Part shown: one piece after another, positions 8,061-11,656 of the stretch
Numbering within the stretch: the stretch's first letter is position 1
Layout of the letters: every line of letters begins with the position of its first letter
Source of the DNA: a virus
Lineage: Duplodnaviria; Heunggongvirae; Uroviricota; Caudoviricetes
Length of the DNA stretch: 64,000 nucleotides
Virus record (IMG/VR): IMGVR_UViG_2778261087_000003
Strand: one strand, 5' to 3'
Notes under the pieces: model-generated
Seen by the model: only the letters and a program-made list of their open reading frames with translations
Database searches by the model: none
What the model was told of the DNA's origin: nothing
Made by a program: the position numbers and the translations under genes

Positions 8061-9959
8061 ATGAATGACGTTACAGTTGTTACATCAGTTACTTACCCAT
8101 CACCCGAGTCGTTGGCTCTGGTGGCTGATGTGCAATACCACGAACCATATCTGTCAGCCGCGCTAAACCGAAAATTCAGGGGGATTGTTGACCCGGGATT
8201 TTATGCCGGTTTCTTACCTAAGCCTGGCGGTGGGATGAACCTGTTAATCACCTCAGTGGATGGTGATAAAACCGCAGGCGCGGCGTCGGTGGATATTGGT
8301 GAATTCTACCAGGTAACTATTCAGCACCGTCAGGATATTTCTCTTGCACTTAGTGCAGGCAAGAAATATGCAATTGTGCTGAAGGGAAGATACCTCCTTG
8401 GAGAGGATACCTATCAGGTTAATACCGCGTCACATATTCATGCGGCTGAATTTGTTACCCGAACCTATACCGATTCATATCAGTTAGGAGATGGGGAGCT
8501 GCTTGTTTGTACGGTGAATATCCCTGCTGGCGTATCAGCCATTACCCAGGAGATGATTGATACATCCGAGCGTATTAACCGCACGATCGGCATTGATATT
8601 TCAGACTCTGTAACCAGTAGCAGAAGTGATGTTGCTGCAAGTTCGCTGGCAGTTAAAAAAGCCTACGATCTGGCGAAAAGCAAGTATACGGCGCAGGATG
8701 CAAGCACAACGCAAAAGGGATTAGTTCAGCTCAGTAGCGCAACTAACAGCGACAGCGAAACAATGGCGGCTACCCCTAAAGCCGTTAAGTCTATAAAAGA
8801 TCTGGCTGATACCAAAGCGCCAATAGAAAGCCCGAGTCTGACAGGAACGCCAACCGCGCCGACGGCAGCGCAAGGTACAAACAGCACGCAGATCGCAAAT
8901 ACAGCCTTTGTTAAGGCAGCTATAACTGCACTTATCAACGGTGCGCCTGGCACACTGGATACGCTGAAAGAAATAGCGGCTGCGATCAATAACGACCCGA
9001 ATTACAGCACAACTATCAACAATGCCTTGGCTCTCAAAGCGCCTTTGGCAAGCCCTGCATTAACGGGTGTCCCTACTGCGCCTACGGCTGCACAGGGCAC
9101 AAACAATACGCAGATCGCTACGACTGCTTACGTACGGGCTGCTATCTCTGCATTGGTCGGATCATCACCTGAAGCTCTTGATACCCTGAATGAGCTTGCA
9201 GCAGCACTGGGCAATGACCCGAACTTTGCGACAACAATGACAAATGCGCTGGCAGGGAAACAGCCACTTGATGCAACTTTAACCGCGCTTGCTGGTCTTG
9301 CGACAGGCGCAAATAAATTGCCGTACTTTACCGGTACAGACACTGTTTCTCAGACTGACTTAACGTCAGTCGGTCGCGATATTCTGGCCAAAACAAGCGT
9401 TCTTGCTGTTATCCAATACCTTGGTTTAGGGGAAGGCTCTGCTTTGCCGGTTGGAGTCCCCATTCCGTGGCCGTCAGCAACGCCACCAACAGGGTGGCTC
9501 AAATGTAATGGGGCTGCGTTTACCGCCTCCCAGTACCCTAAGTTGGCACTGGCTTATCCGGCGCTCAGACTGCCTGATCTACGCGGGGAGTTTATCCGGG
9601 GATGGGATGATGGGCGTGGGGTTGATAGTGGTCGTCAGTTGTTCAGTCTGCAGGGTGAAGATTTCAAAGCCCACCGACATGAGTCCTATTTTTATGCAGG
9701 AATATCACGTAATGAAATACCTCTGACAAGCCTGCTGAGTTCCGATGAAATGCTGACGTTAAGCTCGACGACTAACTCACTATCACCTATGGATATTGAT
9801 GCAAACGGTACCCTTCTCGGTAATGACGATTATAACTGCGTTCAGGAGGGTAACAAAAACAACAAGCGGACTGCGACCGGGTTGAGTACCAATATTATAG
9901 GTGGTTCAGAGACGCGTCCGCGCAACGTTGCATTTAACTATATTGTGAGGGCTGCATAA
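8061..9959 (+). CDS. S: tail fibre protein S (constant part Sc fused to variable part Sv)
   Basis: Starts MNDVTVVTSVTYP...; internal tandem ~80-aa repeats (SPxLTGxPTAPTAAQGTNxTQIA); C-terminal part lies inside the invertible segment beyond cixL. Confidence 0.85.
   Translation: MNDVTVVTSVTYPSPESLALVADVQYHEPYLSAALNRKFRGIVDPGFYAGFLPKPGGGMNLLITSVDGDKTAGAASVDIGEFYQVTIQHRQDISLALSAGKKYAIVLKGRYLLGEDTYQVNTASHIHAAEFVTRTYTDSYQLGDGELLVCTVNIPAGVSAITQEMIDTSERINRTIGIDISDSVTSSRSDVAASSLAVKKAYDLAKSKYTAQDASTTQKGLVQLSSATNSDSETMAATPKAVKSIKDLADTKAPIESPSLTGTPTAPTAAQGTNSTQIANTAFVKAAITALINGAPGTLDTLKEIAAAINNDPNYSTTINNALALKAPLASPALTGVPTAPTAAQGTNNTQIATTAYVRAAISALVGSSPEALDTLNELAAALGNDPNFATTMTNALAGKQPLDATLTALAGLATGANKLPYFTGTDTVSQTDLTSVGRDILAKTSVLAVIQYLGLGEGSALPVGVPIPWPSATPPTGWLKCNGAAFTASQYPKLALAYPALRLPDLRGEFIRGWDDGRGVDSGRQLFSLQGEDFKAHRHESYFYAGISRNEIPLTSLLSSDEMLTLSSTTNSLSPMDIDANGTLLGNDDYNCVQEGNKNNKRTATGLSTNIIGGSETRPRNVAFNYIVRAA
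9411..9436. other. cixL crossover site for Cin invertase
   Basis: atccaataccttggtttaggggaagg; its partner at 11629-11656 is the inverted copy; sits at the junction of constant and variable S sequence. Confidence 0.6.
9421..9620. repeat. left ~200-bp inverted repeat of the invertible tail-fibre segment
   Basis: Near-identical in inverse orientation to 11441-11640; the identical protein stretches VGVPIPWPSATPPTGWLKCNGAAF... in S and Sv' derive from it. Confidence 0.7.
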
Positions 9960-10567
9960 TGGTCAAAGCCGAATTAAATCAGGACATGATCGCCACGGTG
10001 GCCGGTGAAATCCCCGTCTACAACTACGATGGCGAGACGCGCGAATATCTGTCTTCATCCGTTGAGTACCTTGCCGTAGGGGTTGGCATCCCGGCTAATT
10101 CCTGCATTGATGCTCCAGGCGAAAGTAAAACCGGCTTCGCTATTTGCCGGACGGCTGATTTTGCCGCATGGGAATACGTTGTCGATCATCGTGGTGAGTC
10201 GGTCTACAGTACCGTAACTGGTGAGGTAGTTGTCGTTTCTTTACTTGGTGATTACCCAACAGAAACCACACCGCTGGCACCTGCTACGCCATACGATACG
10301 TGGAGTGGTGGCGAGTGGGTGACGGATACCGCCGCGCAGCACGCGGCAAAAGTGGAGGCAGCAGAACAGCAAAAATCAGCGTTACTGATTGAGGCGCAGG
10401 CAATGATCAGTCTATGGCAGACAGAACTACAATTAAGCATTATCAGTGATAAAGATAAGGCCAGCCTGATACTCTGGCTGACCTACATAAAGGAATTGCA
10501 GGCGGTCGTTCCTGACGCTGCACCAGGTATCAAATGGCCTACGCCTCCGGTTGAACAGGCCAGTTAA
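9959..10567 (+). CDS. U: tail fibre assembly protein U
   Basis: Start overlaps S stop (TAATG); N-terminal 49 aa identical to the inverted copy U'. Confidence 0.85.
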   Translation: MVKAELNQDMIATVAGEIPVYNYDGETREYLSSSVEYLAVGVGIPANSCIDAPGESKTGFAICRTADFAAWEYVVDHRGESVYSTVTGEVVVVSLLGDYPTETTPLAPATPYDTWSGGEWVTDTAAQHAAKVEAAEQQKSALLIEAQAMISLWQTELQLSIISDKDKASLILWLTYIKELQAVVPDAAPGIKWPTPPVEQAS

Positions 10568-11138
10568 TATCAGGAGCCGTCGAAACATCGACGGCTTTAA
10601 CCGCCGTTTTATAAGCCATCCATGACGATAATTTCTTTTTGTTTTCTTCGCTGATATCACCGAGCATCAGCTCCACTCGCCAGTCGGAGGATAGTTCATC
10701 TACCTGAGCGAGGAGCATTTGTCGGTGTTGTTCTGCATCAGCAATATCACCTTGATGTTTTGCGTCAGAATCCGTGACCCATTTCTCTCCGTCCCATTTA
10801 TCATACGGTGATGCAGGGGCATTTGGCGTTGTACCTTCGGGATAATCCCCCAGTGTAGTCACGTCGACTTGTTGCATTGTCTCTGTGCTATAAACGGTTT
10901 GACCTCTGTGGTCGGTGACATATTCCCAGGATGAAAGGTCTGCTGTACGGCAAATAGCAAATCCCTCCTTTTTTTCACCCGGAGCATCAACGCAGGAATT
11001 AGCCGGGATGCCAACCCCTACGGCAAGGTACTCAACGGATGAAGACAGATATTCGCGCGTCTCGCCATCGTAGTTGTAGACGGGGATTTCACCGGCCACC
11101 GTGGCGATCATGTCCTGATTTAATTCGGCTTTGACCAT
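10539..11138 (-). CDS. U': alternative tail fibre assembly protein U'
   Basis: Paralogue of U on the opposite strand, identical N-terminus, divergent C-terminus; 3' ends of U and U' overlap by 29 nt. Confidence 0.8.
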   Translation of the reverse strand: MVKAELNQDMIATVAGEIPVYNYDGETREYLSSSVEYLAVGVGIPANSCVDAPGEKKEGFAICRTADLSSWEYVTDHRGQTVYSTETMQQVDVTTLGDYPEGTTPNAPASPYDKWDGEKWVTDSDAKHQGDIADAEQHRQMLLAQVDELSSDWRVELMLGDISEENKKKLSSWMAYKTAVKAVDVSTAPDINWPVQPEA

Positions 11139-11628
11139 TATGCAGCCCTCACGATGTAGTTAAATACGACGTTGCGTGGACGAGTTTCACCTTTCATTGA
11201 TGAGGCATCATTGATGTTCTCCGCACCATTTTTGCCGCCAGACATATAGGTGAATGTCCTACCTCCATTAGCCCAATAGTCACATCCGTATTGAGCTGCA
11301 GGAGAAAAAATAGTTTCATTTGCTATCGCCTGCTCTACACCTGGAGGGATAGCAGTTGGAGTATTAACCGTCGTAGGAATCGCGTGATTGTGGGATATGA
11401 CGGTATGCTCCTGGCTTGACAGTAATTCCCTTCCTGCATCGACCCCGCGTCCATCATCCCATCCCCGGATAAACTCCCCGCGTAGATCAGGCAGTCTGAG
11501 CGCCGGATAAGCCAGTGCCAACTTAGGGTACTGGGAGGCGGTAAACGCAGCCCCATTACATTTGAGCCACCCTGTTGGTGGCGTTGCTGACGGCCACGGA
11601 ATGGGGACTCCAACCGGCAAAGCAGAGC
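11138..11628 (-). CDS. Sv': alternative tail fibre variable segment Sv' (promoterless, expressed only after inversion)
   Basis: Frame open up to cixR; N-terminal part identical to the S region after cixL, C-terminus divergent. Confidence 0.7.
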
Positions 11629-11640
11629 CTTCCCCTAAAC
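11441..11640. repeat. right ~200-bp inverted repeat of the invertible tail-fibre segment
   Basis: Reverse complement of 9421-9620 with a few mismatches at the inner end. Confidence 0.7.
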
Positions 11641-11656
11641 CAAGGTTTAGGATTGA
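11629..11656. other. cixR crossover site for Cin invertase
   Basis: ccttcccctaaaccaaggtttaggattg; overlaps the 3' end of cin. Confidence 0.6.

What the first reader, a model, noticed from the sequence alone, without database searches (positions are those of the whole stretch)
9411..11656. Compact (~2.2 kb) Cin-invertible tail-fibre segment with ~200-bp inverted repeats
cix-like sites (atccaataccttggtttaggggaagg and its inverted partner) bound a segment carrying Sv-U on one strand and U'-Sv' on the other, with identical N-termini for U/U' and for the S junction/Sv'. From memory the P1 C segment is about 4 kb with longer repeats, and S here is only about 630 aa, so this phage has a shortened, Mu G-like host-range switch. 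The 3' ends of U and U' overlap by 29 nt on opposite strands.
Basis: partly seen in the sequence, partly recalled or inferred. Interest (0 to 1): 0.45.

Follow-up and report, generated by a model that had tools for sequence, protein, structure and literature searches.

The report
P1-type phage tail-fibre inversion switch
A P1-like phage-plasmid carries an intact flip-flop DNA switch that should let it alternate between two receptor-binding tail-fibre tips. The flipping cassette is nearly identical to one found in Mu-like and P2-like E. coli prophages, so this is an ordinary kind of switch that also shows how such cassettes are swapped between unrelated phages.

Summary
A 2,221-bp segment (crossover cores at 9421-22 and 11642-43) is bounded by two inverted 26-bp cix sites. 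The sites lie inside 216-nt, 98% inverted repeats. The segment carries Sv-U on one strand and U'-Sv' on the other, next to a cin gene whose product is 185/186 identical to P1 Cin. The cin promoter and enhancer region is identical to P1.

It is not a shortened P1 C segment (4,256 bp, 636-nt repeats). It is a different cassette: short T4 gp37/gp12-type collar tips plus Tfa chaperones. The cargo differs at 2 of 2,219 positions from a P2-like prophage copy and at 7-8 positions from transposable Mu-like E. coli prophage copies. Similarity to those backbones ends at the crossover sites, and the outer half-sites stay P1-specific.

The Mu-like prophages occur in both orientations. A related P1-type contig is in the flipped Sc-Sv' state. 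Inversion of this exact element was not observed.

Compact cassettes of this type are common in enterobacterial prophages and occur in other P1-like plasmids. Verdict: a new member of a known kind, of modest interest. The clean footprint of cassette exchange at the recombination sites is the most useful part.

The parts
7566..7584 (+). Late promoter LPs equivalent (-22 box AAGTTACTT, -10 TACAAT) driving R-S-U
   Evidence: Aligned to the annotated P1 LPs (L002 8319-8337). Both boxes are identical, with one mismatch in the spacer.
7615..8049 (+). R, tail-fibre structure/assembly gene (144 aa)
   Evidence: ORF. It lies in the 98-99.8% P1-identical block. The precomputed Pfam hit is Phage_P1_tail_fiber_R on the identical contig.
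8061..9422 (+). Sc, constant N-terminal part of tail-fibre gene S (454 codons), ending in the crossover site
   Evidence: 98.4-99.8% identical to P1-type Sc. Carries Phage_fiber_2 repeats.
9409..9434 (.). 26-bp crossover site, cixR equivalent (TTATCCAATACC TT GGTTTAGGGGAA; core 9421-9422)
   Evidence: Outer half and core are identical to P1 cixR; the inner half differs at 2 of 12 positions. The motif is found only twice in the window.
9411..9626 (.). Left arm of the 216-nt inverted repeat (encodes the shared collar N-terminus of Sv/Sv')
   Evidence: It differs from the right arm at 5 positions.
9423..9959 (+). Sv, variable tip currently fused to Sc (178 aa; collar frame plus variable head with H-R-H)
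   Evidence: Pfam Collar, E 3e-14. T4 gp37 tip 2xgf, E 8e-18, and gp12. The head has under 40% identity to any deposited phage.
9959..10567 (+). U, tail-fibre assembly chaperone for Sv (202 aa)
   Evidence: Pfam Caudo_TAP, E 1e-26.
10539..11138 (-). U', alternative chaperone (199 aa), silent in this orientation; its 3' end overlaps U by 29 nt
   Evidence: Pfam Caudo_TAP, E 1e-31. 63% identical to U. The exact protein is found in many Mu-like prophages.
11138..11641 (-). Sv', alternative tip (167 aa), promoterless and without its own start; fused to Sc after inversion
   Evidence: Pfam Collar, E 7e-15. 2xgf, E 1.5e-16. In-silico flip gives S' of 621 aa.
11438..11653 (.). Right arm of the 216-nt inverted repeat
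11630..11655 (.). 26-bp crossover site, cixL equivalent (core AA on + strand at 11642-11643), overlapping the 3' end of cin
   Evidence: Outer half CAATCCTAAACC and core are identical to P1 cixL.
11647..12207 (-). cin, serine DNA invertase (186 aa)
   Evidence: 185/186 identical to P1 Cin. Resolvase plus HTH_7 domains.
12118..12189 (-). Recombinational enhancer inside the 5' part of cin (position transferred from the P1 annotation)
   Evidence: The P1 enhancer is annotated at L002 1679-1750. The window sequence is 100% identical across this region and across the predicted cin promoters upstream.
9909..10212 (.). Internal inverted repeat, left arm (end of Sv plus conserved N-terminal part of U); partner 10885-11188
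   Evidence: 304 nt, 86% complementary.

Best explanation
This is the tail-fibre host-range switch of a P1-like phage-plasmid.

How it works:
- Late transcription from LPs reads R, then S, then U. S is Sc fused in frame to whichever tip lies next to it. U is the matching chaperone.
- Cin, together with host Fis bound to the enhancer inside cin, synapses the two inverted 26-bp cix sites. It exchanges strands at the TT core and flips the 2.2-kb segment.
- After flipping, Sc is joined to Sv' and followed by U'. A lysogen population therefore releases two virion types that differ only in a roughly 100-aa receptor-binding head set in a T4 gp37/gp12-like collar.

Origin of the cargo:
- It is not the P1 cargo. 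It is a cassette from the pool used by Mu-like and P2-like E. coli prophages.
- It was installed by replacement with both breakpoints inside the crossover sites.
- The most likely route is rare invertase-catalysed exchange between co-resident elements, with fusion at one site pair and resolution at the other.

What is shown and what is inferred:
- Shown: the anatomy, the site, Cin and enhancer identity, the in-frame alternatives, the breakpoints, and both orientations in relatives.
- Inferred: that this copy inverts, that the two tips bind different (probably LPS-core) receptors, and that the invertase did the swap.

The confidence given is for the switch identity and for the replacement origin of the cargo. 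That the swap itself was catalysed by an invertase is less certain, at about 0.5-0.6.
For: - Anatomy and repeats.
- Sites: the outer halves and core are identical to P1 cixL/cixR. The eight core-proximal bases of the inner half (CCTAAACC) are identical to the natural cixL outer half. There are two matches in the window against 0.01 expected.
- Recombinase: Cin is 185/186 identical, and the promoter and enhancer region is 100% identical to P1.
- Expression: LPs is conserved. The flipped S' is in frame at 621 aa and is followed by U'.
- Cargo identity: 2,219 nt with 2 mismatches to P2-like L014 and 7-8 to Mu-like L003-L012. All homology stops at the sites, and each backbone keeps its own outer halves.
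- Orientation in relatives: of the 10 Mu-like prophage loci, 3 are in one orientation and 7 in the other. P1-type contig L144 is collinear with the flipped window and has the same hybrid site.
- Generality: near-identical cargo lies between different outer halves with unalignable fibre-side flanks in 37 locus pairs.
- Published parallel: PacBio reads showed both orientations of similar 2-3 kb segments, one with a ~227-bp repeat, in E. coli prophages, and trans-acting invertases were proposed there (PMC4134206).
Against: - No read-level or assembly-level evidence shows this exact element in the flipped state. The exact S protein occurs only on the window's own contig. No S' cluster of at least 90% identity and full length was found.
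- The hybrid junction is absent from IMG/VR and the JGI metagenomes.
- The inner half-sites differ from P1's at 2 of 12 positions, and activity of Cin on them is untested.
- Both tip heads are below 40% identical to anything in deposited phages, so different receptors are assumed, not shown.
- The breakpoints can only be placed within the shared ACC TT GGTTTA. Invertase catalysis therefore cannot be separated from short-homology recombination at the same spot.
Confidence: 0.85

Rival explanations
1. The cassette was installed by short-homology or relaxed homologous recombination (host RecA or phage recombinases) using the crossover sites as the only shared sequence, not by the invertase itself.
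For: The only sequence common to the backbones and the cargoes is the site. About 11 identical bases (ACC TT GGTTTA) are shared by the old and new cargo and by the backbones, so any homology-guided process would also map there. Half-cassette mosaics exist: L015 and L018 share the cin-side half but not the Sc-side half. That shows additional breakpoints inside cassettes, which need ordinary recombination. Mirror-position variants in the repeat arms show conversion between arms.
Against: Both breakpoints fall inside the 26-bp sites in every backbone examined. This includes the 37 locus pairs with differing outer halves. Eleven bases is very short for RecA. Wild-type invertases of this family are known, from my memory of the Iida/Arber work and not checked here, to give rare intermolecular fusions at cix and quasi-cix sites.
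Confidence: 0.35
2. The switch is frozen. The foreign inner half-sites or the short segment are not substrates for Cin, so the phage makes only the Sc-Sv fibre and U'-Sv' is dead cargo.
For: Only one orientation of this exact element is on record. The inner halves differ from P1's at two positions. Decayed switches do exist in P1-like plasmids, such as the E. albertii 681-bp remnant with a degenerate cin-side inner half and those described in PMC6906374.
Against: Both cores are TT. The eight core-proximal bases of the inner half equal those of a natural Cin half-site. cin, its promoters and the enhancer are intact. U' and Sv' are intact ORFs and in frame after flipping. The same inner sites invert in Mu-like prophages. 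A related P1-type element with the identical hybrid site is in the other state.
Confidence: 0.07
3. The compact segment arose by internal deletion of the 4.2-kb P1 C segment (a literal 'shortened' switch).
For: It has the same position, the same gene order (Sv-U-U'-Sv') and the same outer half-sites as P1.
Against: P1 homology stops at 9434 and resumes at 11630. No P1-like phage or plasmid record matches the cargo above 80%. The cargo is 99.6-99.9% identical over its full length to cassettes of other phage types.
Confidence: 0.02
4. The junctions are an assembly chimera between a P1-like plasmid and a prophage cassette present in the same genome.
For: The source is a draft assembly contig (NNXF01000006.1). 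Repeated cassettes are known to break or confuse assemblies (PMC4134206).
Against: The shared sequence at each junction is only the 26-bp site. Both junctions give in-frame, complete genes. The independent contig L144 has the same hybrid site. Closed P1-like plasmids show the same design with other cassettes.
Confidence: 0.03

Closest known systems
Phage P1 C segment / Cin (Punavirus P1, NC_005856)
   Same: Same backbone and same position between Sc and cin. Same cixL/cixR outer half-sites and TT core. Cin is 99% identical. Same enhancer inside cin and same late promoter. Same Sv-U / U'-Sv' layout.
   Different: The segment is 2,221 bp against 4,256 bp. The repeats are 216 nt against 636 nt. 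S is 632 aa against 987 aa. The cargo is unrelated at the DNA level. The tips are short collar-type rather than the long P1/Mu-type Sv. U and U' overlap by 29 nt instead of being separated.
Invertible tail-fibre segments of E. coli P2-like prophages (e.g. EC958 Phi2: 2,067-bp segment, 26-bp sites inside a 227-bp imperfect repeat)
   Same: Same cassette design: roughly 2 kb, about 200-nt repeats containing the crossover sites, a Collar-domain tip plus a downstream assembly gene in mirror image, and the inner half GGTTT(A/G)GG(A/G)GAA. Both orientations were seen in PacBio reads (PMC4134206). The window cargo differs from the P2-like prophage L014 copy at 2 of 2,219 positions.
   Different: Here the cassette is attached to the long P1 Sc shaft and is driven by Cin, in a plasmid prophage.
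Phage Mu G segment / Gin
   Same: Same logic and gene order. A family of transposable Mu-like E. coli prophages carries this very cassette (7-8 differences in 2,219 nt) next to a terminal 193-aa invertase, in both orientations.
   Different: From memory, Mu's own G segment is about 3 kb with 34-bp repeats. By the P1 annotation it is homologous to the P1 C segment cargo, not to this one. The Mu-like invertase is only 64% identical to Cin.
Min multiple-inversion system of plasmid p15B / shufflon-like fibre switches
   Same: P1-related backbone, a serine invertase, and tail-fibre C-termini exchanged at 26-bp sites.
   Different: Only two sites are present in the window, so this is a simple two-state switch, not a multi-segment shufflon.

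Membership tests
Cin/Gin/Hin/Pin-type serine DNA invertase switch | Small serine recombinase (about 190 aa) with a resolvase catalytic domain and a C-terminal HTH, encoded next to the segment | tested here: met
   Resolvase E 1.7e-50 and HTH_7 E 1.8e-18. 185/186 identical to P1 Cin.
Cin/Gin/Hin/Pin-type serine DNA invertase switch | Two 26-bp crossover sites in inverted orientation with identical 2-bp cores | tested here: met
   Sites at 9409-9434 and 11630-11655, both with a TT core. The outer halves equal P1 cixR/cixL. Two matches against 0.01 expected. They fit the published consensus quoted in PMC4134206.
Cin/Gin/Hin/Pin-type serine DNA invertase switch | Fis-dependent recombinational enhancer in cis | tested here: met
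   The sequence across the annotated P1 enhancer is 100% identical. Fis binding and function are not testable with these tools.
Cin/Gin/Hin/Pin-type serine DNA invertase switch | The segment is actually found in both orientations | tested here: inconclusive
   This exact element is seen in one orientation only. The same cassette is in both orientations in Mu-like prophages. A related P1-type contig is in the flipped state.
P1/P7 C segment allele (Sv, U, U', Sv' of Punavirus P1) | Located between Sc and cin, with Sc fused in frame to either tip | tested here: met
P1/P7 C segment allele (Sv, U, U', Sv' of Punavirus P1) | Cargo homologous to P1/P7 (and Mu) Sv-U-U'-Sv' | tested here: not met
   P1 homology ends at the sites. 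No P1-like record matches the cargo above 80%.
Collar-tip / Tfa invertible cassette of P2-like and Mu-like enterobacterial prophages | Segment of about 1.6-2.2 kb with mirror-image Collar-domain tips and Caudo_TAP chaperones, with the sites embedded in the collar-coding repeat | tested here: met
   Pfam hits. Near-identity to L014 and L003-L012. Described in PMC4134206.
Multiple-inversion shufflon (Min of p15B type) | More than two crossover sites giving more than two fibre variants | tested here: not met
   Only two sites are present in 64 kb.

The most novel reading that the evidence does not exclude
Invertible tail-fibre cassettes behave as mobile modules in their own right. Serine invertases occasionally recombine a site on one replicon with a site on another. 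Two such events would swap whole receptor-binding cassettes between unrelated myovirus backbones (P1-like plasmid, transposable Mu-like, integrated P2-like) in a natural form of recombinase-mediated cassette exchange. The trio found here (2 to 8 differences in 2,219 nt, breakpoints inside the 26-bp sites) would be a very recent example and a ready experimental system.
Probability: 0.5. Interest if true: 0.55.

Novelty: new member of a known kind. Interest (0 to 1): 0.3.

Why it matters
P1-like phage-plasmids are widespread carriers and transducers of resistance genes in E. coli and Salmonella, and their host range is set by this locus. P1 S and S' fibres are reported to reach different hosts (bioRxiv 10.1101/2022.07.24.501295, abstract seen).

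This element shows that a P1 backbone can take over, intact, the two-tip cassette of co-resident Mu-like or P2-like prophages, and so presumably their receptor specificities. The precise breakpoints give a concrete, testable model for how receptor-binding modules spread between unrelated phages. They also suggest a simple design rule for retargeting P1-based delivery vectors: swap the DNA between the cix cores.

Tried and rejected
- Close relatives of the cargo in annotated collections. There were none above 80% in phages or plasmids, and only 85-87% in three complete E. coli chromosomes.
- The exact flipped fusion protein S' among 5.8 billion proteins. No full-length cluster reached 90% identity. 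Only the partial P0116 was informative.
- The hybrid P1/cassette junction in IMG/VR and the JGI metagenomes, with a 43-nt and then a 28-nt pattern. All four scans gave zero hits.
- Species-representative genomes. None holds the exact cassette; the best was 76%.
- Promoter and terminator consensus scans of 7400-12400. Counts were at chance level and nothing was usable.
- Receptor inference by homology of the variable heads. All hits were below 40% identity.
- NCBIfam gave no specific names for the fibre proteins.
- The Sandmeier 1992/1994 papers could not be read in the held library. What I say of them beyond the quotation in PMC4134206 is from memory.
- Rejected readings: a deletion derivative of the P1 C segment, a shufflon, and an assembly chimera (see rivals).
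- Structure prediction was not run. The tips are intertwined trimers and the PDB sequence matches were already clear.
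Full report
**What is there**

The window is a P1-like phage-plasmid. A 24-kb stretch is about 98% identical to hundreds of E. coli P1-type plasmids. The R-Sc block (7600-9434) is 98-99.8% identical to P1-type records. By the coordinates of L013 and L145, the window corresponds to NNXF01000006.1:32001-96000 of assembly GCA_002486955.1.

At the reported place there are two inverted repeats, and they are the only ones of at least 60 nt in the 64 kb:
- 9411-9626 paired with 11438-11653: 216 nt, 98% complementary.
- 9909-10212 paired with 10885-11188: an internal repeat of 304 nt, 86% complementary.

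The genes are:

| Gene | Coordinates | Strand | Length |
|---|---|---|---|
| S (Sc+Sv) | 8061-9959 | + | 632 aa |
| U | 9959-10567 | + | 202 aa |
| U' | 10539-11138 | - | 199 aa |
| Sv' | 11138-11641 | - | 167 aa |
| cin | 11647-12207 | - | 186 aa |

U and U' converge and overlap by 29 nt. Their first 49 residues are identical. Sv and Sv' share their first 68 residues.

**The recombination machinery**

The outer ends of the long repeat contain two 26-bp sites:
- 9409-9434: TTATCCAATACC TT GGTTTAGGGGAA.
- 11630-11655, read inward: CAATCCTAAACC TT GGTTTAGGGGAA.

The outer halves and the TT core are base-for-base those of P1 cixR and cixL. The inner half differs from P1's (GGTTTAAGAGAA) at two positions. 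Its eight core-proximal bases, read toward the core as CCTAAACC, equal those of the natural cixL outer half. The core-plus-inner motif occurs exactly twice in the window, against 0.01 expected.

Cin is 185/186 identical to P1 Cin. The upstream region with the predicted cin promoters, and the annotated enhancer inside the 5' end of cin, are 100% identical to P1. The late promoter LPs in front of R is conserved. Inverting 9423-11641 in silico joins Sc in frame to Sv', giving S' of 621 aa directly followed by U'. All parts needed for a working two-state switch are present and intact.

**What the cargo is**

It is not a shortened P1 C segment. The P1 segment is 4,256 bp with 636-nt repeats and an S of 987 aa. 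P1 homology stops at 9434 and resumes at 11630. No phage or plasmid record matches the cargo above 80%.

The two tips have a Phage Tail Collar domain. They match the T4 gp37 tip (2xgf, E 8e-18 and 1.5e-16), a short tail fibre (9cuy) and T4 gp12. The frame is conserved: an N-terminal collar and a C-terminal ETRPRNV.FNYIVRAA. The inserted head of about 100 aa is variable and carries one H-x-H motif in each tip (read directly from the sequences). U and U' are Caudo_TAP chaperones, weakly similar to Mu U. The heads are below 40% identical to anything in about 50,000 deposited phage genomes. The receptors are therefore unknown. An LPS-core target is an inference from the gp12/gp37 relationship.

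**Where the cargo comes from**

Looking up the exact U' and U proteins was decisive. The 2,219-nt cargo differs:
- at 2 positions from the invertible segment of a P2-like prophage (L014);
- at 7-8 positions from that of a family of prophages with Mu-like tail-gene order (L003-L012).

The Mu-like prophages sit at many different chromosomal sites. One flank is 100% E. coli. They end in ...CGCATTTATCGCGCGGCGCATCA about 75 nt after a 193-aa invertase gene, and beyond that the flanks are unrelated. This fits transposable phages.

In all three backbones the inner half-site and the TT core are the same, while the outer halves are specific to the backbone:

| Backbone | Outer half-sites |
|---|---|
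| P1-like | TTATCCAATACC / CAATCCTAAACC |
| Mu-like | TTGTCAAAAACC / TTTCCAAAAACC |
| P2-like | TTCTTGATTACC / TTTTCTTAAACG |

The three invertases are only 64-75% identical. The cassette has therefore been exchanged with both breakpoints inside the 26-bp sites, and very recently.

**The pattern is general**

Four other P1-like plasmids keep the P1 outer half-sites and core but carry different cargo, with segments of 681 to 1,855 bp. There were 90 pairs with at least 97% identical cargo. In 37 of these pairs the cargo lies between different outer half-site sets, often with unalignable fibre-side flanks. Among 95 protein-cluster representatives carrying the Sc junction motif, tips of 150-199 aa (24) are about as frequent as P1-type tips of 500-549 aa (27).

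**Does it flip?**

This was not shown for this exact copy. The exact S protein is found only on the window's own contig. No full-length S' cluster of at least 90% identity exists in the protein collection. The hybrid junction is absent from IMG/VR and the JGI metagenomes.

The indirect evidence is good:
- The same cassette is found in both orientations in the Mu-like prophages, with 3 loci in one state and 7 in the other.
- An independent E. coli contig (L144) has the identical hybrid site and is collinear, over 1,863 nt at 90.7%, with the flipped version of the window. It is a related P1-type element in the Sc-Sv'-U' state.
- Similar prophage segments were caught in both orientations by long reads, and invertases acting in trans were proposed there (PMC4134206).
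- Sequence differences at mirror positions of the repeat arms (9455/11609 and 9506/11558) show that the arms exchange information.

**Mechanism of acquisition**

The breakpoints can be placed only within the shared ACC TT GGTTTA. Invertase-catalysed exchange between co-resident elements (fusion at one site pair, resolution at the other) fits best, and I favour it. Short-homology recombination at the same sequence cannot be excluded. Half-cassette mosaics (L015 against L018) show that ordinary recombination also acts inside cassettes.

**Comparison with what is known, and verdict**

The cin-Sv'-U'-U-S region is already listed as a hypervariable hotspot of P1-like phage-plasmids (PMC9603915; PMC6906374). 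The compact collar-tip cassette with crossover sites inside a repeat of about 220 nt has been described in E. coli prophages (PMC4134206). Horizontal exchange of fibre modules among P1, Mu, P2, e14 and p15B is classical knowledge (Sandmeier and colleagues, from memory; those papers could not be read here).

This is therefore a new member of a known kind. It meets the definition of a Cin-type invertase switch, apart from direct observation of inversion. It fails the test of being the P1/P7 C-segment allele. It is a member of the prophage collar-tip cassette family. Its value is as an unusually clean and recent example of cassette exchange at the recombination sites across three phage lifestyles. 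I score interest at 0.3.

Noticed in passing
L003-L012 (e.g. L004 1-8450): A family of E. coli prophages with Mu-like tail-gene order sits at many different chromosomal sites. The 193-aa invertase is the last gene, and the prophage ends in ...GCGCATTTATCGCGCGGCGCATCA about 75 nt after it. No mom-like gene lies between the invertase and the end. None of the 5,426 complete E. coli genomes carries the exact cassette.
   Followed up: partly
window 9455/11609 and 9506/11558: Differences between cassette copies fall at mirror positions of the two repeat arms. The window has one variant in both arms, the Mu-like copies have the other variant in both arms, and the P2-like copy is mixed. This suggests conversion between the arms.
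   Followed up: partly
window 10539-10567; also L015 3177-3205 and L017 2673-2701: The 29-nt overlap of the convergent chaperone genes recurs in other, otherwise different cassettes, so it looks like a conserved centre of the cassette design.
   Followed up: no
window 10576-10595: An 8-bp G+C-rich hairpin (GCCGTCGA-AACA-TCGACGGC) followed by TTTAACCGCCGTTTTAT lies just after the U stop codon, inside the U' coding sequence. It may be a weak terminator for the S-U transcript. The consensus terminator scan did not flag it.
   Followed up: no
L016 (E. albertii plasmid CP043244.1; several sibling plasmids): These P1-like plasmids have only 681 bp between the two P1 outer half-sites, a degenerate cin-side inner half (TGTTTGGAATAT), and no annotated S gene. 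This is probably a decayed, locked switch.
   Followed up: partly
Salmonella plasmid NZ_CP051361.1 (hit H56): A P1-like plasmid has sopE (a type III secretion effector) annotated between the tail-fibre gene and the invertase, so a virulence gene is riding in or beside the C-segment region.
   Followed up: no
window 9909-10212 / 10885-11188: The internal 304-nt, 86% inverted repeat spans the ends of Sv/Sv' and the N-terminal parts of U/U'. Homologous recombination across it would re-pair tips with the C-terminal halves of the wrong chaperone.
   Followed up: no
whole contig NNXF01000006.1 (window = 32001-96000): The source contig is 130 kb, clearly longer than a typical P1-like plasmid of about 95 kb. 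Extra cargo or a cointegrate may be present outside the window.
   Followed up: no
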